64,000 nt of DNA from a virus (IMGVR_UViG_3300011269_000001); one strand, 5' to 3'; numbered from the stretch's first letter, positions 33,930-62,805 are shown. Notes: generated by a model from the sequence alone, not told the origin. Made by a program: numbers and translations.

Positions 33930-36900
33930 ATGAAACTGGGCAAGTCTCAACGCGAGAAGGCCCTCGTCGTAGCCTCGGTGGCCTGCTTCAACCCCGATGG
34001 CTTGCTCCTGCTCGGCAAGCGCGACGATACCGGCAAATGGGTTCTGCCGGGCGGCCATGCTACGCTCAAGGAAGAGAACGAAGAAGACCATCGCCGGACC
34101 GCGGTCCGGGAACTTTACGAGGAAGCTGGCCTCAAGCCCAAGACCTTGGAATATCTCGGTCAAGATACTGTCCATAAGGGCGGACATGACATCGTCGTGC
34201 ACTGTTACCGAGCCGATGTTGATGGAGAGCCTACTGGCAAGCATGACCCCGACGAAGAGTGCTCTCACTGGGAATGGGTAGACGCCAGCGACGGCATCCC
34301 GGAGAAGTACGACCTCCGAGACCGGCCTAATTGCACCCTGGTCAGGCTCGGCATCGAGGCCAGCCTCAGCAAGGCCCAAAAGAATTGGCGGTCCCGGGAA
34401 GGCATCACCATCCCGACGGCTGATAATCCGGAGCGTAGGCACTGGAACGATGCCTTCGAACAACACCTGAAGGAAGTTTTTGGCAGCCAGCGAGGCCAGG
34501 ACCTCCAGCCGATAAAGGTCCCCGTTGAACAACTCCAGGGCATGAACATGCCCGTGAACCAGGACCGGCTCCGACTCTACCGTCGCATGGCCGCTGCCGG
34601 CGAACAACTCCCGCCCATCGTCGTCCGACGTTCGGGGAAGGGCTTTAACGTCATCGACGGCAACCATCGTCTGGCAGCCGCCCAGGCCCGGGGTGTCACG
34701 CACCTGAATGCGTACGAAATTCTGGACCCAGTGAAGAAGGCCTTGAAGGACATTCCTGTCGGGCCACGAGTTAAATTTCAACCAGAAGAAGTCCAGCAAT
34801 GGCGCTCGTTGACTGGTGGTTCGAATCCATGGAAATTGGACCAAGGTTTGCTCCAGGGCGCCGTCCATGACTATAGCCATGTCCTTAAGCCAGAGCATCG
34901 ACAAGCCGGCTATCGGCTCAGGGTTTACCACGCCCCGCGAGTCTCGCACCCTGACTTGAAAGGAAGATTCCCTGGACACAGGCTAGAAGCTAAGTTGTTC
35001 CACGGTGACCAATACGCAGGCGGTATTCAAGCCCTCGTCGGTCACGAAGACCCGGTAGACCCGGGTGTAATTGACATCGGTCATTCTCGGCTGAGAGACG
35101 AGCATCGGGGCAAGGGCCTCGGCCTGGCTCTCTACGAGGCTCTCCTGGCCCATGGGAAAAATAAATTAGGTGCCTCGCACGTCAGCGGAGATGCTCATAG
35201 TACCCTGGCGTCTAGAGTCCATCAGAAGCTGAGCGAAAGACACGGAATGGGGTACGAACCCGAAGAGAAAATGGGGCCATCAGAATCAAAGCCTACTGCT
35301 GCCGAATTTCAGCGCCTAGGAATTGAGCCAAAGTCCCAATACAATTATGCCGCAGAAGCCTTCGATGAGCGTTTTGCCCCGTATCAATACGCTCTGAAAC
35401 AGGAAGTGGCTCCGACCGATATCGGCCTGGAGGCCAGGGGCTACCAATTCGGAATTCATCACCTGAAGGACCGAACCGGGCAAGTCCATACCACGACCGT
35501 CTCAGTGACTCATCCTGATGAATATAAGCGGTCGGGCGACGACAAAGTTGGTGCCGTAGATTTCGAACATACGCCAGACGAGCATCTTGTTGCCAGCCAG
35601 GTTTGGGTTCATGAGCGTCATCAACGACAGGGTATTGCCAGGCGAATGTATCAGCTTGCAACTGAAGCAGCAAACAAGCCAATTAGGCCATCTTCTCTGC
35701 GGACCCAGGCGGGTGCCAATTTTTGGCTTGGTAAGGATGAACTAGATTTTAATAAAAAAGAAAATGCCGAACCTGGACACTCGGACGAGGATGATGGTAT
35801 ACTACCCTCTTTTCAGGAGCGTGATTCATTGGTTCTTGAGAAGGCACTCTGGCCGAGTTTGTTGACAGCCGCTACTCTAGCAACATCTCCGGTCCAGGCG
35901 CAAGTCCCAGGTGCAGAAATCCAACCCCAGGCACAGCAGGTCCAGCAAGTAGAGCAGAAATGGACTCCGCATGGCCTGGACCGGGAATTGAAACCTATCG
36001 CTCACCTGGAATCTGGTTTCGGCCGAAACACGAACCATGAGCCACATTCTGGGGGTCCGTATCATACGGCCTATGGAGCCCTGGGCCTGAAACCGGTCAC
36101 CGCTCACGAAACCTATAAGCACAGTCCGCGGTTGCAGAAGCTTTTCCCGGGTCTCGACTCTCCGGAGAAAGTCATCGAGAAGATGAAGGACCCACAATTT
36201 TACAACATTGTGGCCAGCGGACATTGGCGCTACCTCAAGAGAGTACTCGGTGACCCTCTGAAAGCCGCCTATGGTTGGCGTTGGGGTCTGGGTGCTGCTC
36301 AGCACGCTGACGACTATCAAATCAAGACCGAGCCCTATGTGCAGAAGTACGGCCTGATGATGGCTGCCAAGCTCGGTCAAGCGGTTATCAGCCACCTGAT
36401 GGAAAAGACCGAGCTTACGAAGTCTGAGCAGGACCATCTGATGACCCTTCTGGACCATGATGACCGTCTCGAACGACGCCTGGCCCTCAAGCACAAGAGC
36501 ATAAAGCCGTTCCACTTGCGCCACGCTCTTCATGATGAAGACCCAGAGATTCGAGCCCTGGCTGCTGCTCACCCGGCGATGACCGATGAACTTCTGACCG
36601 AGTCCTTGTATCACGACGACCCGATGGTCCGTGAGACTCTGGCTCGTCGACCGGACCTGCAGGCTCATCACCTGGACGTTCTGCTCTGGGACCCAGCGAC
36701 TCAGGCCTTGGCCAGCCGGCATCCGGCTCTGACCGAGGAACAGCGACAGAAGCTTGTCGAGCATCCCCAGACCCCGGCCGGACTCCGAGAAGAAGTGCTG
36801 CGGAAGAACATCGGCTTCCTTCTCTATCCCAATTTTGGTCTCAAGCAAGTTCCCACGCAGCCCATGATTTTGGGAGATAGAAAGCATCGCGAAAATCGAT

Positions 36901-38798
36901 ATCTGCTGCAAGCAACAAGGCTTACCGGGAAGAAGGCTCCTGCAGCTGCTCAGGTCAAAGCTTATCTTCGGGCTGCCAGAACCGGTGGTTCGATGCTTTA
37001 CAACACGATGCCCGATGCGCCGACTCCTAGCCATTGGCGGACCATGGGTGGTTTTGTCAACCCTGAGACGAATTTGAATTTACACGGTAATGTCGGTCAC
37101 GAATCTCAACACAGCGTCTACGGACAGCTTTCTCAGAACATTGGCCAAAAGGGAATGCGGGAAGTAGTTGACCGGACCATTGGTTCCTTGGATGAAAAGC
37201 ATCGCCAGGCCCTGGATAAAATCATGGCCACAAAGCGCTATGCGTATACCCCGGAGCAAGCGCCCGAGGAAAACCTGGCCTACGTCCATAACTACCTTCA
37301 GGACCCGGTGATGCGGGCGGGGGTTCATCGGCATCATGGCCTGAATGAGCAAGAAGGTCGGGAGTTGGTACAAGACGTCCGTCGGGCCTGGCAGCAGATG
37401 CAACGGTACGCCCAGACTCTGAAGCCCAAAGATATCGGGCCTCACATCTGGGCCGACCCCAAGCTCAACAAGACCGAAGAGCTTCGCGACTGGGCCAAGC
37501 ATCACGGTGCCGACCTGACCAAGCGCAGCGAGGTCCTGCTTCGAGACCCTTCGCGTGGCAAGCCCGAAGAGAAGGAAGACCTTGCCCAGGACCTGATGGG
37601 ATTCAGCGAACATGCTGACGCCGTCATGGCCGCAGCAAAATTCCTATCCGGAGGCAAAGAAATCAACGAGGAAGAATTCCGTCGTTATCTCTGGGTTCAC
37701 GACAACGATATCGAGGCCGCTGCTCTGGCAGCCTATGGCTTGGAAATCAACGAAGCCAACCTGAAGGCTCTGAAGGGTTTGCTGGAGATTCGTGACCTCG
37801 GGAAGAAGGAAAAGATTTGGGACTACGACCCGCACGTGGTCGCCGCGGTCCCTGAAGGCGAGAAAACGGCCCGTGAGGTTGAAGCAGCTCTCCGTGCCGG
37901 CAACGTGAAGCAACTTGAACTCAAGGGCAAGCACAGTAAAGGCGCCCTTATGGTTTGGGCTCCACATGGTGGCGATACCTATCTTCTGAAGCCCGGGTCC
38001 GGTAAGCCGAGTCCGGCAAAGGGGGTCAAGGAAGAACGCGCCAGCCAGTCCCAGCGCGAGGCAGCATTCGCCCACGTGGCCCGGAATTGGGACCTGGAAC
38101 AGTATCTTCCCAGTGCCGACCTGATTATCGTCGAAGACAAAAAGGACGGCCAGAAGGTAATCAAAGAATACGCAGCCATCAAATTCCTGGGCATCGGCTG
38201 GAAAAATCTTGACAAGACCCGGAGTAAGACCCCGAACCTGGGTCGCATGGCCATGACCAAGTACCTCCGGAACGGGAGTCTGCACAAGTGGGCTGTTCTC
38301 GACTGGGTGCTCGGGAATCCGGACCGCCACAGCCAGAATCTGATGATTTCTAACGAGGAAATGGGTAGCCGGTTGATGCTCATTGACCACGGCTCCGCGT
38401 TTGCCGGACAGAGCTTCGACCCCGTCCACGACGAGAGTAGCTTCACACCCTATTACCTTCGGATTTGGAATTCGGACTCACGTAAGAATTTCAACCTCCT
38501 GAATCCAGAAGAGCGTTTCAAGGTCATGCCCCGGACCAATCACTTCAGCGAAGACCTCCTGAGGGTTTGGTTGCAGGGTATCAACGAGCATGAACTGGAA
38601 TCAACACTGCTGCGCTATGGCCTGAACCCCGATGCTGAAGTTGGGCGCCTGCAGTTGGTCAAGACCTTGGCTCTCTCAATGCCGGTTGATGAAGCCATCA
38701 ATCAGATTTGGTCCGGGATGTACGGTGACCCGACTCACCAGGCCACGGCAGAGGAATTGACCGGACAAGCCGAACCGGTGGAGAACTTGGTTCGCTAG
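33930..38798 (+). CDS. 1622-aa polyvalent protein: Nudix, ParB-like, two GNAT, lysozyme/SLT-like, HEAT-like repeats, HExxH zincin-like, HipA/PI3-4-kinase-like
   Basis: LPGGH...AVRELYEEAG; PPIVV...IDGNHRLAA; HRGKGLG and HQRQGIA; IAHLESG...AYGALG...AAYGWRWG; LHDEDPEIR/LYHDDPMVR; HESQH (37098); DWVLGNPDRHSQN...LIDHG (38322). Confidence 0.85.
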   Translation: MKLGKSQREKALVVASVACFNPDGLLLLGKRDDTGKWVLPGGHATLKEENEEDHRRTAVRELYEEAGLKPKTLEYLGQDTVHKGGHDIVVHCYRADVDGEPTGKHDPDEECSHWEWVDASDGIPEKYDLRDRPNCTLVRLGIEASLSKAQKNWRSREGITIPTADNPERRHWNDAFEQHLKEVFGSQRGQDLQPIKVPVEQLQGMNMPVNQDRLRLYRRMAAAGEQLPPIVVRRSGKGFNVIDGNHRLAAAQARGVTHLNAYEILDPVKKALKDIPVGPRVKFQPEEVQQWRSLTGGSNPWKLDQGLLQGAVHDYSHVLKPEHRQAGYRLRVYHAPRVSHPDLKGRFPGHRLEAKLFHGDQYAGGIQALVGHEDPVDPGVIDIGHSRLRDEHRGKGLGLALYEALLAHGKNKLGASHVSGDAHSTLASRVHQKLSERHGMGYEPEEKMGPSESKPTAAEFQRLGIEPKSQYNYAAEAFDERFAPYQYALKQEVAPTDIGLEARGYQFGIHHLKDRTGQVHTTTVSVTHPDEYKRSGDDKVGAVDFEHTPDEHLVASQVWVHERHQRQGIARRMYQLATEAANKPIRPSSLRTQAGANFWLGKDELDFNKKENAEPGHSDEDDGILPSFQERDSLVLEKALWPSLLTAATLATSPVQAQVPGAEIQPQAQQVQQVEQKWTPHGLDRELKPIAHLESGFGRNTNHEPHSGGPYHTAYGALGLKPVTAHETYKHSPRLQKLFPGLDSPEKVIEKMKDPQFYNIVASGHWRYLKRVLGDPLKAAYGWRWGLGAAQHADDYQIKTEPYVQKYGLMMAAKLGQAVISHLMEKTELTKSEQDHLMTLLDHDDRLERRLALKHKSIKPFHLRHALHDEDPEIRALAAAHPAMTDELLTESLYHDDPMVRETLARRPDLQAHHLDVLLWDPATQALASRHPALTEEQRQKLVEHPQTPAGLREEVLRKNIGFLLYPNFGLKQVPTQPMILGDRKHRENRYLLQATRLTGKKAPAAAQVKAYLRAARTGGSMLYNTMPDAPTPSHWRTMGGFVNPETNLNLHGNVGHESQHSVYGQLSQNIGQKGMREVVDRTIGSLDEKHRQALDKIMATKRYAYTPEQAPEENLAYVHNYLQDPVMRAGVHRHHGLNEQEGRELVQDVRRAWQQMQRYAQTLKPKDIGPHIWADPKLNKTEELRDWAKHHGADLTKRSEVLLRDPSRGKPEEKEDLAQDLMGFSEHADAVMAAAKFLSGGKEINEEEFRRYLWVHDNDIEAAALAAYGLEINEANLKALKGLLEIRDLGKKEKIWDYDPHVVAAVPEGEKTAREVEAALRAGNVKQLELKGKHSKGALMVWAPHGGDTYLLKPGSGKPSPAKGVKEERASQSQREAAFAHVARNWDLEQYLPSADLIIVEDKKDGQKVIKEYAAIKFLGIGWKNLDKTRSKTPNLGRMAMTKYLRNGSLHKWAVLDWVLGNPDRHSQNLMISNEEMGSRLMLIDHGSAFAGQSFDPVHDESSFTPYYLRIWNSDSRKNFNLLNPEERFKVMPRTNHFSEDLLRVWLQGINEHELESTLLRYGLNPDAEVGRLQLVKTLALSMPVDEAINQIWSGMYGDPTHQATAEELTGQAEPVENLVR

Positions 38799-49244: not shown

Positions 49245-49985
49245 TTCTGTTCTCCTATCCATTTCGTCCAACAAGTTCTGCAACCGCACCGGGGCTCGCG
49301 CTTGCCCTGGTACTTATTGGCATAGGAACATTTTTCTTTCTTTGCTTTCATTTGTACTTCCTCCTACTGCCACGGCGCCGAGTCGAACGGCGGTCTTCCC
49401 ACCTATAAGACGGGGCTCTGCCCTTGAGCTACCGTAGCCAACCCCTCTAAACTTTGTGAGTCACCTTGATTGTGACCCCGAAACGGTCTCCAATTTGCAG
49501 CTTGTCCCAATCCCCAGGTAGCACTGGTATTTCCAGCGTCTTCAATCCGAAGATTCGGTCACCAACGAGAGCAGTAACGGAAACGGAGAAGACGTTTATT
49601 CCGGTGTCGCCGGTGATGTGCTTGCTGTCAACAATGTATTCAATGTTCATTGGACTTCCACCAATTCTTGTTTGGGAGTGGCAAAATTCAGCTCCAGGGA
49701 TGCTTCGAAAAGAGAGTTGAGTGTGGTCTCGTCAAAGAGTTCTTTCGAAACCAGGACCTCGATGCGGCTGGCGCCATATCCGGTCCACCGCTGCTGTTGG
49801 GTCTCGGGGACGGGAATCAAGGAGAACCAATAAGATTGCTGGAAGTTTCCCTTGGTGTCCTTGTATTGCTGCGAGAACTTCGTATCCACGCGGAACTTGT
49901 AGGCGATGGTGAACATTGACGTTTCCTTTCATTGTCGGGGCTGGCGACAATCTTTGAGAGTATAATACCACAGGTGGCCAACCGA

Positions 49986-51395
49986 ATGCACGTCTACATT
50001 TCCTGGGAGTCGGATACATTCCACGATGAGCTTCAGTCTACCATCATGGCGAACGATGCTGAAGCCATCCGACACCTAAATCAGCGTGCTGAGCACTCCA
50101 ACCTGATTTGGTCTAGCTGGTCTGCCGCCCGCGGCGGCTCGATTATTTTTCTGAGCGCCGGTCGGGGCCTGGCCGATATAGAGGCTGCACATCTTGGGGA
50201 GCTTCCGAACATTCATCAACAGTACGGCGACGACCTCGGCCAGAAAGTCAGTGTCGGTGTCGGTACCAACCCCTTTGAGGCTGACAGAGCCCGAAAGTTT
50301 GCCTGGAAGTTGGGTGGCGACAGAATTATTATCTTCGAAGAAGGCCTGGAAGACTTCAGCCATACCGAAGAGGAATCCGCAGAACTTTCGAAGGCCGAGA
50401 CTTGGCAGGACCTGACCCCGGAACAGAAGTCTGAGTTCAGGCGCCAGTACCGTGAGGACATCCAGAAGCTAGCCAAGATGGAATTCCCGATGGCTGCGGT
50501 TCGTGACGGCCAAAAATATGAAATCCTCGGCCCGCTAAGTAACGTCCAGGGTCAGTGGGGTTCTGACCACATTGTCCTTGCCAAGTCCGAAGACGGGAAA
50601 AAACATTTTCTCGACGCCCGTGAATTGTGCACCGATGGACAACCCCTGGTCCGGCCGGCTCCGCCCCGGTTTGGCTACCTGTTCAAGGCCGATGAACCCG
50701 GTCGCCACATCCCCAGTAGGCCCGCGGCACCGGCGAAGCCAACGATGTCCGGCGAGCACGAAGAGGCTCAAGTCGCCCAGCAGGCAGCCGAGGCCCAGCA
50801 AGCTGCGGTACCGGAGCAGACCGATGCCGGTGAAGGATTCCTTGGCCAGTTGAAGGCTCTGGCTGATGGACAGCAGGACCAGGACAGCCAGGCTGTTCAG
50901 GACGATGCCGGCGATGACCGTGCAGAAGTTAAAGCTACGGTGGTGAAGATTCTCAAGGACATCCAGGCTAAGAGTCCGAACCTGAACGAAATCCGCGAGA
51001 AGGACCCGGACCTCTACAATTCCATCTCCGGACTGGTCAAGGTGCTCATCACCATGACCCGGGAACTTGTCAAGGAACAACCGCAGCAAGCGGCCCAGCC
51101 GACTCAGAAGGAAGAATTAGACCCGGCTCATCCACCGCCGGAAGGTAGCCGGGTCCTGGATAAAGAGGACATCGAGAAAGCTGCACTTCCGATGCCCAAG
51201 GCTCCGACTCGACACGAACTCAACCTCCCTGTTGGTAGTCAGAAAGATTCCTCGCCTGGTGGTAGCCAGGATGCCGGTAAGCTCAAGGTCCAAGACCCGA
51301 AGACCGGCAAAGAGAAATGGCGCAGCGTTCGTGCCGGTCTTGTCATGGACCCCGGCGGTGCCCCGACTTCCAGCCGCAATCCATCAGGAGAGTAA
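49986..51395 (+). CDS. Putative virion protein with degenerate N-terminal mCpol-like (GGDEF-fold) domain
   Basis: VYISWESDTF...NDAEAIRHL...GGSIIF...VSVGVG...EADRA...GGDRIIIF. Several K| motifs downstream; CAATCTT at 49948. Confidence 0.6.
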   Translation: MHVYISWESDTFHDELQSTIMANDAEAIRHLNQRAEHSNLIWSSWSAARGGSIIFLSAGRGLADIEAAHLGELPNIHQQYGDDLGQKVSVGVGTNPFEADRARKFAWKLGGDRIIIFEEGLEDFSHTEEESAELSKAETWQDLTPEQKSEFRRQYREDIQKLAKMEFPMAAVRDGQKYEILGPLSNVQGQWGSDHIVLAKSEDGKKHFLDARELCTDGQPLVRPAPPRFGYLFKADEPGRHIPSRPAAPAKPTMSGEHEEAQVAQQAAEAQQAAVPEQTDAGEGFLGQLKALADGQQDQDSQAVQDDAGDDRAEVKATVVKILKDIQAKSPNLNEIREKDPDLYNSISGLVKVLITMTRELVKEQPQQAAQPTQKEELDPAHPPPEGSRVLDKEDIEKAALPMPKAPTRHELNLPVGSQKDSSPGGSQDAGKLKVQDPKTGKEKWRSVRAGLVMDPGGAPTSSRNPSGE

Positions 51396-57959: not shown

Positions 57960-60548
57960 ATGGCACAAAGCTTTATTACAGACCAAGGCACCCTGATAAT
58001 CCCAGGCGGTTATCCGTCTATTCGAGTTCAGACCGCGGCCAGTGGTCTTGCGACCTCCGGCGTCATCATGCTCGTCGGCGAAGCTGACCAAGGCCCGGAC
58101 TTTACGCTTGAAACAGACCTGGAGACAACCTCCGCCTTCGGTCCTGACCAGCTGTCCTCAGTGGTGGCGAAGTACAAGAGCGGCAACTTGGTTGATGGAT
58201 TCCGTGCCGCTGCTCAGGCCTCGAACGACCCGCAGATTACCGGTGCTCCGTCCAGAATCATCCTCGTCAAGACGAACCCCAGTACCAAAGCCAGTGCCAC
58301 GGCCCTGACCTGGGGTGCGTTGACTTGGACCCTGGCTGACCGTAGCTTCGGCAAGCTCGGGAACCTCATCAGCTTTACTGTCACCGCGGCTACTTCCGAA
58401 GTTGTTCCCACGACCGGTTCCTTTACCTGGATTCCGAACGCCGGGACTACGGCATACAATGTCCGTATCAACGGCGGTGCTGCACTGACCAGCGGTAACT
58501 TGGCTGCGAATACTTCTCCTGCTGCCTTCGTGGCGGCAATCGGTGGTCTTGCCGGTATCACGGCTATCGGCGGTGCTGACAGAGGCATTCTCGCAGCTGC
58601 TGCCGGAACCCTGGCAGTTGTAGCCAACCCCGGCGGTGCCGGTGTCACGGTTGTCACCGTCACCCGGAGCATCAACTTCGACGTAATCCCGACGGCCGGC
58701 GATACAATGATTATCCCCCTCGGCTCTGTAATCGCCGGGGCCGGTAGCGCAAACGTCGGTGCATACGTTGTCACGGCTGCAACGGCAACGGTCATCACCG
58801 CACAAAAACTCAGTGACGCCGGTGCTGCGGCCCCGGTTCCTGGAACCATTACCAATCCCGTCAACGTGGCTGCGGCTGCTGTCGTGGCTACGACAGATGT
58901 TCAAGCCAAGGCTCCGGTTACGGTCAGCCTCGCGGCTGCAAATCCTGTCGACGGTATCGGCAAGTCTCTGGAAATCAGCGAACTGACGACCGGCACGGAC
59001 CTGCTCAGTCGCAGCACCTTCGCTCTCGGCGTACTGCCTGTGACCTGGGTCAGTAAGGCCCTCAGCCCCCAGAACCTGGTCTCTGCGACCGAATACCGGG
59101 CTACTTATACCGGCAGCCGTCAGGTCGACAACGTCCTTGAGACCTTGACTGCGGGCGGCGAAATTGCCTTGCTGATGAGCTATAAGGGCACGACCGCCAC
59201 TGTCACCATTACTGCCACAACCTTCAGCACCACGGTCACCGGCGGCACCGGTGCCGGCTTCAGTATCAACCTCAGGGATTACCCGACCATCAACGACCTG
59301 GTGAAGTTCATCAACGCCCAGACCGGTTATACGGCAGCAGTCGGTACCGCGGTCCTCGGACAGATTGTCCTCACGACCCCGGGTGCGAACATCGGCCAAG
59401 CTGCTCTGACGGCTCTCGACCAGGGTACCTTCGGCATCTGCTCGACCCAGGGTGTTCAAAACGGCCGCATCAAGATTGACAGCTTCCGGTTCTTCAACGC
59501 CATCAACAACAACAGCGTCCTACTGCAGACCGGCACGGGTCTCTTCCCGACGCAGGCGACTGCCGGCGTTCCTCAGCCCACGGCCCTGACCTTCTTGGCC
59601 GGTGGAGCCAAGGGTGGAACCACGGCCGTGAACTACAACGCGGCAATCGACGCCCTCCAGAAGGCCCGCGGAAACTTCGTCGTCCCCCTCATCAGCCGTG
59701 ACGCGACACTGGATATTGCCGATGGTCTGACGGAAACGACCAGCACCTATACTATCGACGCGGCTAACGCGTATACGAATACTCACTGTCTGACAATGTC
59801 CACGCTGAAACGGCGTCGGAACCGTCAATGCTTCCTCAGCAAGGAAGATACGTTCCTGAACCAGAAGCTCGCGGCGGCAAACATCGCCAGCTTCCGGGCT
59901 GCGATGTGCTTCCAGGACCCGAAGGTCGTGGCAGCCAGCACCGGCAATATCACTCAGTTCCAGCCCTGGATTACGGCCTGCGTTGCAGCCGGCATGCAAG
60001 CCGCTGGATTCCGTCTCGCCATCGTCAACAAACAGTTGAACATCTCCGGACTCGTGAACCGTGCCGGCGACTTCAACGACAAAGACGACACCGCGATGGA
60101 AGACGCTCTGAACAACGGTCTGCTTCCTGCCCGTCGTGCCGTTACCGGTGGATTTACTTGGGTCAGCGACCAGACGACTTACGGTAAGGACAACAACTTC
60201 GTCTTCAATAGCATCCAGGCCGTGTATACGGCTGACGTCATCGCCCTGACCACTGCTCAACAGATGGAAGCCCAGATTGTCGGCCAGTCGGTCGCTGATA
60301 TCAGCGCCCCGATTGCACTGTCTATGCTGGAAGCCATCATGGGGAACTTCCTCCGGCTCAAGCTCATTGCCCCCAGCGATGATGCCCCGAAGGGTTTCAA
60401 GAACGCAGCCGTGGCCATCATCGGCGGCAAGGCTCTCCGTGTGGACGTGGAAATCAAGCTCGCGACGGCAATCTACTTCGTGCCTATCAGCTTCCTGGTC
60501 AGTCCAGTGAATCAATCGGCCGGCTCCAGCAGCGGACCTACGAGATAA
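57960..60548 (+). CDS. Tail sheath protein
   Basis: IIPGGYPS...LVGEADQGP at the N-terminus; LAGGAKG, VSDQTTY...NSIQ and IYFVPISF at the C-terminus; directly before the tube gene. Confidence 0.9.
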   Translation: MAQSFITDQGTLIIPGGYPSIRVQTAASGLATSGVIMLVGEADQGPDFTLETDLETTSAFGPDQLSSVVAKYKSGNLVDGFRAAAQASNDPQITGAPSRIILVKTNPSTKASATALTWGALTWTLADRSFGKLGNLISFTVTAATSEVVPTTGSFTWIPNAGTTAYNVRINGGAALTSGNLAANTSPAAFVAAIGGLAGITAIGGADRGILAAAAGTLAVVANPGGAGVTVVTVTRSINFDVIPTAGDTMIIPLGSVIAGAGSANVGAYVVTAATATVITAQKLSDAGAAAPVPGTITNPVNVAAAAVVATTDVQAKAPVTVSLAAANPVDGIGKSLEISELTTGTDLLSRSTFALGVLPVTWVSKALSPQNLVSATEYRATYTGSRQVDNVLETLTAGGEIALLMSYKGTTATVTITATTFSTTVTGGTGAGFSINLRDYPTINDLVKFINAQTGYTAAVGTAVLGQIVLTTPGANIGQAALTALDQGTFGICSTQGVQNGRIKIDSFRFFNAINNNSVLLQTGTGLFPTQATAGVPQPTALTFLAGGAKGGTTAVNYNAAIDALQKARGNFVVPLISRDATLDIADGLTETTSTYTIDAANAYTNTHCLTMSTLKRRRNRQCFLSKEDTFLNQKLAAANIASFRAAMCFQDPKVVAASTGNITQFQPWITACVAAGMQAAGFRLAIVNKQLNISGLVNRAGDFNDKDDTAMEDALNNGLLPARRAVTGGFTWVSDQTTYGKDNNFVFNSIQAVYTADVIALTTAQQMEAQIVGQSVADISAPIALSMLEAIMGNFLRLKLIAPSDDAPKGFKNAAVAIIGGKALRVDVEIKLATAIYFVPISFLVSPVNQSAGSSSGPTR

Positions 60549-60566
60549 GTGAAGGGGTAAGATAAA

Positions 60567-61040
60567 ATGGCTCCACCGAAAGTCCTACATGGTGCCCGCG
60601 CACAGCTGATGATTGTCGACCCGAATACCGGGGACAGCAAAGTCGTGGGCATCTTCAACAACGTCTCGTACAGTCTCATCTACGACGCGCAGCCAGTTTT
60701 TATCCTCGGTCGCTTCAGCGCCGCGGAAATTGGTTACACGGCGATGGAACCGATTCAAGTCACGGCCACAGGCTGGAGAGTTGTGAATGCCGGCCCGCAT
60801 CGGGTCGCGAAAGTCCCCCGGCTACAAGACCTCATCCGCCACGAGTACTGCGAATTGGCTCTCTTTGACCGCCAGACGAACCAACGCGTGGCCAAGATTC
60901 ACGGCCTCCGACCGACTGGGTATTCAACGACGGTCACGTCCCGTCAGTTGGAAGAGATTACCGTTACATGGATGGGTCTGTTACTTGACGACGAGGACAC
61001 GGACAACGTCGAGGGCACCGGCGCAAGCGACTTACCGTAA
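60567..61040 (+). CDS. Tail tube protein
   Basis: 157-aa beta-rich protein directly after the sheath; PVFILG...EI motif; followed by a terminator. Confidence 0.85.
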   Translation: MAPPKVLHGARAQLMIVDPNTGDSKVVGIFNNVSYSLIYDAQPVFILGRFSAAEIGYTAMEPIQVTATGWRVVNAGPHRVAKVPRLQDLIRHEYCELALFDRQTNQRVAKIHGLRPTGYSTTVTSRQLEEITVTWMGLLLDDEDTDNVEGTGASDLP

Positions 61041-61044
61041 AATT

Positions 61045-61084
61045 AAGAGAAAGGCATTCAAATAGTCTTGAATGCCTTTCTCTT
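61045..61084. terminator. Bidirectional terminator between the tail operon and the RAMP/array locus
   Basis: Perfect 17-bp stem AAGAGAAAGGCATTCAA / TTGAATGCCTTTCTCTT with a 6-nt loop, between convergent units. Confidence 0.85.
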
Positions 61085-61349
61085 TTACCATGCTAAGTCC
61101 GGGCCACGCCGGGCCGCTCCTCACCGAACCCTGCTCCGCCTAGCCTGCTTTGATGTGCTTCGCCTTGCTTTGCCCTACCAAGCCAGGCCGCGCCTTGCCT
61201 TGCCTGCTTTGATTTGCCCTGCTCAGCCTAGCCTAGCTGCTCCTAGCCGGGCCAAGCCTGCTTTGCTAGTCCTTGCCCTGCCTGCTTTGTCATTGCTCTG
61301 CTCGACCACGCCATGCCTTACCCGACCGCGCCACGCCCGGCCTGCTTTG
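61085..61349 (-). repeat. Pentameric (GGY-NN)n array in five units delimited by CAAAGCAGGC; candidate guide-RNA array
   Basis: GCCTGCTTTG (+ strand) at 61143, 61202, 61256, 61280 and 61340, with strict 5-nt periodicity between copies. Confidence 0.9.
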
Positions 61350-61353
61350 AAAA

Positions 61354-61803
61354 CTACTTTTGTGACTTCCGAGACTGCAACGACTTCCGTGCCTTTGCTA
61401 CTTCCTGTCGAATTGCGGCAAGTTCCTTCAGAGTCTTATACTTCTCACCAGCTCGTTCGTATTCCTCCAATGCTTGAGCCAGGAATGCCGCCCGTTTCTG
61501 CGCGTTGCTCAAGACGCTAACAAGTGTGACGTATCCTTCCTTTCCACGGGAGACGATTGGTGATACATAGGTTTGTTCTTCTCTGCCGTCAGGGTAGGTG
61601 ACCCGAACTTCCGTGATGATTTCTCGGGCCTGCCAGAGTCTGTACTCGCGACCGGCAACAGTATCATCCCACTCGAATCTGGAGTGCAGGGCACTGTCAG
61701 GATGACTTTCTGCCCAATCCACGACAACCTCGGGCTTGAGGCCACCATGTTTTTCGTAGAGCTTAGATAGCTCATCTACAATGGCTTGCGATTTCTTGTT
61801 CAT
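61354..61803 (-). CDS. Partner protein of the RAMP gene (helical, unknown function)
   Basis: ATGA overlap with the RAMP stop; LKPEVVVDWAESHPDSALHSRFEWDDTVAGREYRLWQAREII. Confidence 0.75.
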   Translation of the reverse strand: MNKKSQAIVDELSKLYEKHGGLKPEVVVDWAESHPDSALHSRFEWDDTVAGREYRLWQAREIITEVRVTYPDGREEQTYVSPIVSRGKEGYVTLVSVLSNAQKRAAFLAQALEEYERAGEKYKTLKELAAIRQEVAKARKSLQSRKSQK

Positions 61804-62453
61804 TTTGTCTCCTCTGTTTTTGCGATTCTGAAAGTGCCCCAACCCATGCCGGCTGAGTCTGTGGAATCGGGACGGCCGGCGCCGATACCGACCTGCATAC
61901 CCATTCGTGCAAGTAGATTTGTCACGTCGGTCAAAGTGAATTGGTCCGCGTCATAACAAATCTTCGGATTTGCTTCCCAGCCCTCGGTCCACATGGGTCT
62001 TGGTCTGATGTCAGCAACACCCGTCTCATTACGAACGGCGAAGTCTGTGCGGATTGGCTCGCCTTTAGTAATCTTGACCAGGGGTTGAATCCCGAACCGG
62101 TCTCGTTCGTAGCCATCAGGCACCACGAAGATACTGAGCTTGGCGAGAGTCATTTTGAAATTCACTAGCCGACAGGTAGAAATCAGCCCTCCCCGAAATG
62201 CGCTGGCCGGAATTCCTGCCCAGCCTTCTTCAGAGAAGTGGGTTGCTTCTTTGAAGCAAAGGTCGAAATCTTTTGCCTCTCTTTTGCCCTTCTTGGCTGT
62301 ACTGCCTGCCGCTTGAGTTTTGGCCATACCTTCTAGGGCCCGTTGAGAAAACTTGTTCTGAACCATCGGGGCGGTACCGATGATTTTGAACGCTGCGGTT
62401 AACAGATTGGGAGGGGTAATCGCAACGGCTTCGCTCTTGTTTTTGAATGCCAT
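61800..62453 (-). CDS. Stand-alone RAMP / Cas7(Csm3)-like RNA-binding protein
   Basis: N-terminal strand KIIGTAPMV, GIPASAFRGGL (RAMP IPGSSLKG motif), C-terminal G-rich loop GIGAGRP...GMGWGTF; RBS AAGGAG. Confidence 0.75.
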   Translation of the reverse strand: MAFKNKSEAVAITPPNLLTAAFKIIGTAPMVQNKFSQRALEGMAKTQAAGSTAKKGKREAKDFDLCFKEATHFSEEGWAGIPASAFRGGLISTCRLVNFKMTLAKLSIFVVPDGYERDRFGIQPLVKITKGEPIRTDFAVRNETGVADIRPRPMWTEGWEANPKICYDADQFTLTDVTNLLARMGMQVGIGAGRPDSTDSAGMGWGTFRIAKTEETK

Positions 62454-62479
62454 TTCAGTTGGCTCCTTTGATTTTTAGG

Positions 62480-62518
62480 ATACTAACACAGTCCCAAACG
62501 GAAATCAACTGTGATTTC
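62480..62518 (-). promoter_or_regulatory. Promoter of the RAMP operon with an overlapping palindrome
   Basis: TTGATT-17-TAGTAT. Inverted repeat GAAATCA-ACTG-TGATTTC (62501-62518) covers the -35. Confidence 0.6.
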
Positions 62519-62805
62519 AAAACGATAGAGCATCGGCTTTTTACGGCAGTGCTCTACCATTTTTTCAGCAACGGTTTCGATGAGATGCAAAGGACAGCTG
62601 AAAAGAAACGGTTGAAAGAAACAGCCTCAAAACTTCTTCACGACCGACTCGGGGAATTAGGGCTTACTCTTGGCCCGGACCTGTTCACGGACATTGAGAA
62701 GCGGTAAGCCAGCGTCGATGCCAGTTCCGGTGGACCTTCAGTGCCCGCCGGCTCCCGAACAAGCGCTCACAATCCAGGCATTGTCGCCCACGGCCCGTGC
62801 GCCTT

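What the first reader, a model, noticed from the sequence alone, without database searches (positions are those of the whole stretch)
61085..62453. Candidate RNA-guided system: lone Cas7-like RAMP, partner gene and a non-CRISPR GGY-NN pentamer array
Seen: one minus-strand unit runs promoter, 217-aa protein, ATGA-coupled 149-aa protein, a 265-nt array starting 4 nt after its stop, then a terminator. The 217-aa protein has RAMP hallmarks (IPASAFRGGL and a terminal G-rich loop GIGAGRP..GMGWGTF). No cas1, cas2, cas3, cas6 or CRISPR repeats are in the window. Established: Cas7-family RAMPs polymerise along a guide RNA with a fixed nucleotide step. Inference: each subunit binds one constant GGY triplet and presents the variable dinucleotide, so each unit is a guide with a non-contiguous code. 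With no nuclease evident, it may silence or block targets such as competing phages or host defence genes. From memory, phage RAMP plus GGY/NN RNA systems may have been reported recently under the name VIPR; I cannot verify this here, so this may be a new instance rather than a new class.
Basis: partly seen in the sequence, partly recalled or inferred. Interest (0 to 1): 0.95.

Follow-up and report, generated by a model that had tools for sequence, protein, structure and literature searches.

The report
Phage VIPR guide-RNA silencing locus
This soil phage carries a complete VIPR system (a Cas7-like protein, a partner protein and five guide RNAs built from five-letter repeats); the kind was first described in 2026 preprints, so this is a new example of a known system rather than a new class.

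Summary
On the minus strand a 217-aa gene (62453-61800) overlaps a 149-aa gene (61803-61354) by ATGA. A 250-nt tract of NN-GGY pentamers starts 4 nt after the stop and ends at a 17-bp hairpin. Only the claimed promoter is unsupported.

The tract is a staggered vrRNA array of five units, each closed by a 4-nt AGGC step. NN positions carry 0.08 bit and the constant triplet 0.8-1.6 bit.

Of 80 related viral loci, 70 have same-strand arrays and 75 have the same partner gene (PHROG 15946, unrelated to SUSP1 vap1). One relative's guide matches a rival phage's Walker-A codons 20/20 under the published 1-nt-skip rule.

No target was found for this phage's own guides. The cassette is absent from 28 phages with a related tail sheath.

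VIPR is published (bioRxiv 10.64898/2026.04.26.720920), and this scan has noted it in at least 75 other genomes. Verdict: new member of a known kind. One possibly new detail is a Glu-to-Ala change at a guanine-reading residue that goes with more AGY triplets.

The parts
61800..62453 (-). vipr: 217-aa stand-alone RAMP (Cas7-like) protein. The G-loop is GIGAGRPDSTDSAGMGWGTF (residues 189-208).
61354..61803 (-). vap: 149-aa accessory protein, translationally coupled (ATGA). It has a small helical N-terminal domain with the motif HSRFEWDD..YRLWQAR and a 48-residue C-terminal helix.
   Evidence: PHROG 15946, E 2.4e-20. Homologous to the gene after vipr in Cy-LDV1 and in mycobacteriophage Quico (99.5% and 99.4%). 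Present downstream of vipr in 75 of 80 viral loci. Unrelated to SUSP1 vap1, which is PHROG 5926. Model pLDDT 90.8.
61344..61349 (-). Lead-in C-AAAGC before the first AGGC step; it starts 4 nt after the vap stop.
61284..61343 (-). vrRNA unit U1 (60 nt). AGGC step, then NN = CG GT GC CG AA AT GT CG AG AA (+AA); it holds one extra base (AATGAC).
   Evidence: A unit is taken as the stretch between two AGGC steps, by analogy with L012, where the whole such unit matches a target.
61260..61283 (-). Unit U2 (24 nt), truncated: NN = AG AA CT AA.
   Evidence: Units in relatives run 8-14 steps, so this one is probably a remnant.
61206..61259 (-). vrRNA unit U3 (54 nt): NN = TT CC TA GC TA TA TG AG AA AA.
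61147..61205 (-). vrRNA unit U4 (59 nt): NN = AA AA GC CT TT AG AA AA GA AC AA.
61098..61146 (-). vrRNA unit U5 (last; no closing AGGC step): NN = TA GG AG TC GA GC CC GT CC, then CT-TAGCATGG running into the terminator.
61045..61084 (.). 17-bp hairpin plus short U tract: a likely bidirectional intrinsic terminator shared with the convergent tail-tube gene (60567-61040, +).
   Evidence: dG -29.7 kcal/mol, z -8.2, 0 of 200 shuffles as stable. It was not picked up by the consensus terminator scan.
62454..62520 (-). 5' region with a strong Shine-Dalgarno (AAGGAG, 62468-62463) and a weak promoter-like TTGATT-17-TAGTAT (62508-62480).
   Evidence: Read from the sequence. The sigma-70 scan found nothing at its threshold, so the promoter is unverified.

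Best explanation
The locus is a VIPR (Viral Interference Programmable Repeat) system carried as an accessory cassette by a complete 165-kb tailed phage from soil metagenomes.

Shown here: vipr encodes a minimal RAMP homologous to the characterised SUSP1 Vipr. vap encodes the accessory protein typical of this Vipr clade. The tract after vap is a 'staggered' array of four full guide units and one truncated unit. Each unit is about 10 NN-GGY pentamers, and a 4-nt AGGC step separates it from the next.

Inferred from the published mechanism: the operon is transcribed as one RNA and cut into vrRNAs of about 55-60 nt. One Vipr protomer binds each constant triplet, forming a helical filament that presents the NN dinucleotides. 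These pair with double-stranded DNA while skipping every third base, usually the codon wobble position. The bound filament then blocks transcription of a gene in a competing phage, satellite or prophage.

The targets of this phage's four guides are not identified.
For: Protein:
- It hits the same PHROG (4652) as SUSP1 Vipr, Quico gp57 and Cy-LDV1 g34.
- hhalign of its family profile against SUSP1 Vipr gives 94% probability, E 1.4e-7, nearly full length, with the G-loops aligned.
- The SUSP1 RNA-contact residues R138 and R179 are conserved as R152 and R194.

Array:
- Strict 5-nt periodicity, present on one strand only and unique in the genome.
- Variable NN against a constant triplet.

Family context:
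- 70 of 80 IMG/VR loci encoding relatives have at least 8 in-phase GGY triplets on the vipr strand; 4 of 80 do on the other strand.
- 75 of 80 have the vap homologue.
- Most of the 409 in-phase runs end NNGGC|AGGC.
- Relatives whose Vipr is 78-79% identical carry entirely different NN strings.

Rule in this clade: in an all-against-all test of 165 guides under skip 0-3, the only non-self perfect match is at skip 1. L012's guide matches L015's AAA_24 ATPase gene 20/20, in the wobble register, on the codons YGQPGVGKTT. L012's own allele matches 17/20.

Published mechanism: 10.64898/2026.04.26.720920 and .720927.
Against: - Nothing here shows transcription, processing, RNP formation or silencing for this locus.
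- No target was found for U1, U3, U4 or U5: not in its own genome, IMG/VR or JGI metagenomes, and not in five large relatives allowing up to 3 mismatches.
- The array is less regular than in relatives. 14 of 45 pentamers have AGY rather than GGY, and the authors report that perturbing GGY abolishes silencing in SUSP1.
- Three SUSP1 contact residues differ: H17->N33, D177->A192, W178->G193.
- U2 is truncated.
- No consensus promoter was found.
Confidence: 0.88

Rival explanations
1. It is a decaying or inactive VIPR cassette. The genes are intact, but the array has drifted (AGY triplets, one truncated unit, one unit with an extra base) and no longer guides silencing.
For: - 31% of in-register triplets are AGY, against about 1% in Glu-type relatives.
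- U2 has only 4 NN, and U1 is out of register by one base.
- The acidic residue that reads G1 in SUSP1 is Ala here.
- No targets were found.
Against: - Both ORFs are full length and keep the family's invariant residues: G185, G193, R194, G206.
- Ala at this position marks a large clade: 97 of 118 close clusters and 71 loci that carry arrays. It is not a private lesion.
- The locus is identical in five assemblies from several samples.
- The authors note frequent internal degeneracy of natural vrRNAs.
Confidence: 0.08
2. The pentamer tract acts at the DNA level and is not a guide RNA. For example, it could be an iteron-like binding array or a recombination-prone microsatellite next to a RAMP protein that has some other RNA function.
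For: No expression data exist for this locus. The tract lies between convergent operons, where a structural DNA element could sit.
Against: - The arrays are strand-specific relative to vipr in 70 of 80 loci, against 4 of 80 on the other strand.
- They occupy variable positions (upstream, between the genes, downstream) but always lie inside the transcription unit.
- NN is hypervariable between close relatives.
- One clade member's unit spells a rival gene exactly under the RNA-guide rule.
- In SUSP1 such tracts are sequenced vrRNAs that co-purify with Vipr.
Confidence: 0.03
3. It is a remnant or minimal form of a class 1 CRISPR-Cas system (a Cas7 orphan).
For: The best structural matches are Csm3, Cmr4 and type VII Cas7.
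Against: - The 165-kb genome has no Cas1 and no repeat-spacer array.
- PADLOC gives no hit and Pfam/NCBIfam give no cas hit.
- Sequence identity to Csm3 is 9-14%, whereas the protein falls in the Vipr PHROG.
Confidence: 0.01

Closest known systems
VIPR systems (Vipr + vap + vrRNA), bioRxiv 10.64898/2026.04.26.720920 and 10.64898/2026.04.26.720927; characterised example: type II VIPR of Escherichia phage SUSP1 (NC_028808.2; vipr 29061-28474, vap1 28471-28031)
   Same: - Gene order vipr-vap-array on one strand, as in SUSP1.
- The Vipr belongs to the same PHROG and aligns over nearly its full length.
- It has the RAMP fold with a G-loop.
- The array is built of YNNGG/GGY-NN pentamers, about 10 per guide.
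- The carrier is a phage, with no cas genes and no CRISPR array.
   Different: - The Vap is an unrelated family: PHROG 15946 against 5926.
- Guides are about 55-60 nt and abut one another through a 4-nt AGGC step. SUSP1 guides are about 100 nt with a structured pseudoknot tail.
- The G-loop carries an 8-residue insertion (SxxSxGxGW).
- SUSP1 D177/W178 are A192/G193 here.
- The constant triplet is RGY rather than strict GGY.
'Staggered' vrRNA arrays mentioned in the VIPR preprint (fig. S18; only the legend could be read)
   Same: Units follow one another without spacer or tail, and the end of one marks the start of the next. The register drops by one base at each boundary.
   Different: I could not see the figure or the type tables, so I cannot say which of types I-VII this clade is, or whether the AGGC step is the boundary drawn there.
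VIPR loci of Cyanophage Cy-LDV1 (g34/g33) and Mycobacterium Cheoctovirus phages such as Quico (gp57/gp58); both are annotated 'hypothetical protein'
   Same: The Vipr is 62% and 30% identical. The Vap family is the same. Both carry NNGGC arrays with GGC-AGGC steps next to the genes.
   Different: Those are temperate phages of 47-59 kb, with the locus in the immunity/early region. Here the cassette sits after the tail-tube gene of a 165-kb phage that has no tyrosine integrase. The arrays lie upstream (Quico), or between the genes and downstream (Cy-LDV1).
Cas7/Csm3 backbone subunits of type III CRISPR-Cas
   Different: - The step is 5 nt, not 6.
- The guide is a tandem repeat, not a spacer flanked by repeats.
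- There are no Cas10, Cas5, Cas6, Cas1 or Cas2 genes.
- The target is double-stranded DNA read with gaps.
- No nuclease is present.

Membership tests
VIPR | The Vipr protein is homologous to the experimentally characterised Vipr. | tested here: met
   PHROG 4652 is hit by the window protein (E 6.5e-12) and by SUSP1 Vipr (E 1.4e-96). hhalign gives 94%, E 1.4e-7, 172 columns.
VIPR | Adjacent tandem YNNGG (GGY/NN) repeats, at least 4 units, on the vipr strand. | tested here: met
   About 45 pentamers in five units. This is the only such array in the genome.
VIPR | Constant triplet conserved, NN hypervariable. | tested here: met
   0.08 bit at each NN position against 0.96, 1.59 and 0.81 bit at the triplet. 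Close relatives carry different NN strings. Caveat: 14 of 45 triplets are AGY.
VIPR | Small locus with a vap accessory gene; no cas genes and no CRISPR array. | tested here: met
   The vap is translationally coupled and conserved in 75 of 80 loci. The genome has no Cas1 and no CRISPR-like array. PADLOC gives no hit.
VIPR | Residues that hold GGY in SUSP1 (H17, R138, D177, W178, R179). | tested here: inconclusive
   R138->R152 and R179->R194 are conserved. H17->N33, D177->A192 (family majority Glu) and W178->G193 differ, and an 8-residue insertion carries a conserved Trp. This rests on a profile alignment, not a structure.
VIPR | Guides match natural DNA targets under the 1-nt-skip rule. | tested here: inconclusive
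   Nothing above chance was found for the window's own guides. Within the clade there is one perfect, in-frame match from L012 to L015.
VIPR | vrRNAs are expressed, processed and bound by Vipr, and the RNP represses transcription. | not testable with these tools
   This needs small-RNA sequencing, pull-down and reporter assays.
VIPR type II (SUSP1 / P. fulva clade) | A vap1 accessory gene and vrRNAs of about 100 nt with a conserved structured 3' tail. | tested here: not met
   The Vap is unrelated to vap1 (hhalign 0.2%; different PHROGs). Units are 54-60 nt with no tail between them. Rfam finds no structured element.
CRISPR-Cas class 1 | A repeat-spacer array plus further cas genes (Cas5/6/8/10, Cas1-2). 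| tested here: not met

The most novel reading that the evidence does not exclude
The window's Vipr belongs to a sub-clade in which the acidic G-loop residue that hydrogen-bonds the first guanine of GGY in SUSP1 (D177; Glu in most of this family) is Ala. Arrays next to Ala-type Viprs have about five times more AGY triplets than arrays next to Glu-type Viprs, while CGY and TGY are unchanged. The window is an extreme case, with 31% AGY. The change may therefore relax the protein's reading of the constant triplet from GGY to RGY. That would be a natural specificity variant showing how protein and repeat co-evolve.
Probability: 0.25. Interest if true: 0.5.

Novelty: new member of a known kind. Interest (0 to 1): 0.3.

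Why it matters
The locus adds a well-delimited, complete example of a VIPR system with a staggered array, a non-vap1 accessory protein and short tail-less guides, in a large and apparently non-temperate soil phage. It shows that the cassette moves between very different phages: 28 phages with a related tail sheath lack it at this site, and its closest Vipr relatives sit in phages of about 40-60 kb.

The family survey gives two leads of wider use. First, the 1-nt-skip/wobble rule established for type II holds in this distant clade, and a unit bounded by two AGGC steps behaves as one guide. Second, a Glu-to-Ala change at a guanine-reading residue goes with AGY triplets. This is a cheap hypothesis to test about how Vipr recognises its repeat, and it bears on re-engineering the constant part of vrRNAs.

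None of this changes the class, which is already in print.

Tried and rejected
- **Targets of the window's guides.** Self-search under skip 0-3 gave only background, best 16/20 at skip 1, no better than the other skip rules. Exact 1-nt-skip patterns for U1, U3, U4 and U5 gave 0 hits in IMG/VR, and U5 gave 0 hits in JGI metagenomes. A 9-NN version of U1 gave 15 metagenome hits. These fall in unrelated genes and mixed reading registers, and none extends to the 10th NN, so they look like chance. Five large phages with a related tail sheath have no match at up to 3 mismatches for any guide.
- **Host.** The genome-contig scan with Vipr gave only two distant MAG hits, a Verrucomicrobia and a Hyphomonadaceae. 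The host remains unknown.
- **Vap function.** Pfam, NCBIfam and PADLOC gave nothing significant. Foldseek against the PDB gave nothing. VIA wide matched only the long C-terminal helix to coiled coils, and the N-terminal domain was effectively untested. BFVD returned only uncharacterised phage proteins.
- **Vipr-Vap complex prediction.** No verdict; it is not used as evidence either way.
- **PDB sequence search with Vipr.** No hit. The VIPR cryo-EM chains are apparently not in the copy.
- **Rfam.** No family and no hammerhead between units.
- **TRF.** It misses the array because the units differ at NN.
- **Ala/AGY association on a tree.** There are only about 5 state changes and 2 well-supported independent pairs, so the test cannot reach significance.
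- **VIPR type (I-VII).** It could not be assigned, because the preprint's figures and supplementary tables are not held.
- **Overlapping plus-strand ORF.** The 150-aa ORF across the array (61068-61520) is rejected as a gene. It is low-complexity and antisense to vap, and a 5-nt period cannot encode a peptide repeat.

Full report
**What is there**

On the minus strand a 217-aa ORF (62453-61800) is preceded by AAGGAG at a 9-nt spacing. It overlaps a 149-aa ORF (61803-61354) by ATGA. Four bases after that ORF's TAG stop, the sequence CAAAGCAGGC opens a tract that runs to about 61098.

In the tract, GGY triplets recur at exactly 5-nt spacing in four successive phases. A 265-nt window there holds 21 lag-5 GGY pairs; the maximum elsewhere in the 64-kb window, on either strand, is 3. 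It is the only such tract in the whole 164,871-bp genome. Tandem Repeats Finder misses it because the units differ at two of five positions.

Read in register, the 45 pentamers carry 0.08 bit at each of the first two positions and 0.96, 1.59 and 0.81 bit at the last three. All 16 dinucleotides are used.

The tract divides into five units that each begin AAAGC-AGGC, of 60, 24, 54, 59 and about 49 nt. The register drops by one base at each boundary, because AGGC is a 4-nt step.

A 17-bp hairpin (61084-61045, dG -29.7 kcal/mol, z -8.2) followed by AAUUUU lies between the array and the stop of the convergent tail-tube gene. No sigma-70 consensus promoter was found. By eye there is only a weak TTGATT-17-TAGTAT at 62508-62480.

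The array is identical in five assemblies from at least four samples.

**The 217-aa protein**

Pfam, NCBIfam and PADLOC give nothing. The protein hits PHROG 4652 (E 6.5e-12).

I located the published SUSP1 VIPR locus in NC_028808.2 by its pentamer arrays. Its Vipr (29061-28474) hits the same PHROG at E 1.4e-96, as do the homologues in mycobacteriophage Quico and Cyanophage Cy-LDV1. A profile of 91 relatives aligns to SUSP1 Vipr with 94% probability (E 1.4e-7, 172 columns), including the G-loop.

The family is large: 3,272 hits among 90%-identity clusters and 1,674 representatives of 50%-identity clusters.

Of the SUSP1 residues reported to hold GGY:
- R138 and R179 are conserved as R152 and R194.
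- H17 is N33.
- D177 is A192, where the family majority is Glu.
- W178 is G193, next to an 8-residue insertion that carries a conserved Trp.

**The 149-aa protein**

It belongs to PHROG 15946. It is homologous to the gene that follows vipr in Cy-LDV1 and in Quico (99.5% and 99.4%). It shows no similarity to SUSP1 vap1, which is PHROG 5926.

The model (pLDDT 90.8) has a small helical N-terminal domain bearing the conserved HSRFEWDD..YRLWQAR motif, followed by a 48-residue helix. No informative fold match was obtained.

**Do relatives have arrays?**

Yes. Cy-LDV1 has NNGGC arrays between the two genes and after them, and Quico has one upstream. Both are punctuated by GGC-AGGC steps.

Among 80 IMG/VR loci encoding relatives:
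- 70 have at least 8 in-phase GGY triplets on the vipr strand; 4 have them on the opposite strand.
- 75 have the vap homologue downstream.
- The array position varies. The window's order, vipr-vap-array, is the commonest (17 loci).
- Most of the 409 in-phase runs end NNGGC|AGGC.
- Units are mostly 8-14 steps long.

Relatives whose Vipr is 78-79% identical have entirely different NN strings. This is what one expects of guides.

**Does the published rule apply to this clade?**

I parsed 165 unique units from 52 loci and scored them against 1.2 Mb of held sequence under skip 0, 1, 2 and 3, with the arrays masked.

The only non-self perfect match is at skip 1. The ten NN of unit L012:3880-3933 match L015:2611-2639 at 20 of 20 positions. 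NN fall on codon positions 1-2 and the skipped base on the wobble position. The matched codons spell the Walker-A motif YGQPGVGKTT of an AAA_24 ATPase gene, just downstream of L015's own VIPR locus. L012's own allele (YGAPGIGKTT) matches 17 of 20.

The chance of any perfect 20-nt match in this search is about 2e-4. So the 1-nt-skip, wobble-skipping logic reported for type II also holds here, and a stretch between two AGGC steps behaves as one guide.

**Targets of the window's guides**

None was found. The searches covered its own genome, IMG/VR and JGI metagenomes (where the hits look like chance), and five large relatives at up to 3 mismatches. The host is unknown.

**Genome context**

The window lies in a complete virus record with terminal repeats. 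The locus is convergent with the tail sheath gene (PHROG 279) and the tube gene. The genome has no tyrosine integrase, no Cas1 and no CRISPR-like array.

None of 28 phages found through the tail sheath protein carries vipr, vap or an array in the stretch held around that gene, which reaches up to 4 kb downstream where the contig allows. Five of their long records lack Vipr altogether.

The closest Vipr relatives sit in phages of about 40-60 kb, beside lambda-like terminase, portal and repressor-type genes. The cassette therefore looks horizontally acquired.

**Comparison with what is known**

VIPR is described in bioRxiv 10.64898/2026.04.26.720920.720927 and 10.64898/2026.10.15.759431. The first preprint lists seven types, six vap families and 'staggered' arrays.

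This locus meets every sequence-level criterion of the class. It does not meet those of type II, because the vap differs and the guides have no tail. I could not assign a type number because the figures and tables are not held.

This scan has already noted VIPR loci in at least 75 other genomes. The same array grammar was also read in an overlapping window of this genome.

**One detail that may be new**

The window's array has many AGY triplets (14 of 45), and its Vipr has Ala where SUSP1 has the G1-reading Asp.

Across 138 loci, arrays next to Ala-type Viprs (n=71) average 5.2% AGY. Arrays next to Glu-type Viprs (n=67) average 1.0%. CGY and TGY are equal in the two groups.

The Ala/Glu state changes only about 5 times on the tree, with 2 well-supported independent pairs. 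The association is therefore confounded by relatedness and remains a hypothesis.

**Verdict**

The locus is a new member of a known kind.

Noticed in passing
L012:3880-3933 and L015:2611-2639 (IMG/VR relatives): [quoted passage not shown] The guide-bearing phage's own allele (YGAPGIGKTT) matches 17/20. It was the only non-self perfect match among 165 guides tested at four skip rules.
   Followed up: yes
window 61878-61880 (codon of A192 in vipr) and array 61343-61098; loci L005-L210: Vipr proteins with Ala instead of Glu at the position of SUSP1 D177 sit next to arrays with about 5 times more AGY triplets (5.2% against 1.0%; CGY and TGY equal). The association is confounded by phylogeny: about 5 state changes and 2 well-supported independent pairs.
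   Followed up: partly
window 57960-61040 against L108-L135: The VIPR cassette follows the tail sheath and tube genes only in this phage. 28 phages found through the sheath protein show no vipr, vap or array in the stretch held around that gene, and five of their long records lack Vipr entirely. It looks like an acquired accessory cassette.
   Followed up: yes
window 49932-51395 (+): A 487-aa ORF has a weak, sub-threshold Pfam match to the minimal CRISPR polymerase domain (mCpol, PF18182; E 2e-4, 22.1 bits against a cut-off of 26.4). PADLOC gives no hit.
   Followed up: no
window 33930-38798 (+): A 1,622-aa ORF combines NUDIX, GNAT and PI3/PI4-kinase-like Pfam domains. Another reader of this genome noted it as a possible polyprotein.
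   Followed up: no
window 61354-61803 (-): The protein on record for this genome's own vap is a 118-aa form from a later start (P0271). Gene calls on four other assemblies of the same phage give the 149-aa ATGA-coupled form, and homologues of 139-174 aa cover up to 95% of it.
   Followed up: yes
The cause was not examined.
   Followed up: no
L001 (Cyanophage Cy-LDV1 g34/g33) and L002 (Mycobacterium phage Quico gp57/gp58): Cultured, deposited phages carry this VIPR clade (vipr, vap and NNGGC arrays) next to their repressor, Cro and excisionase genes. All of these genes are annotated 'hypothetical protein'.
   Followed up: partly
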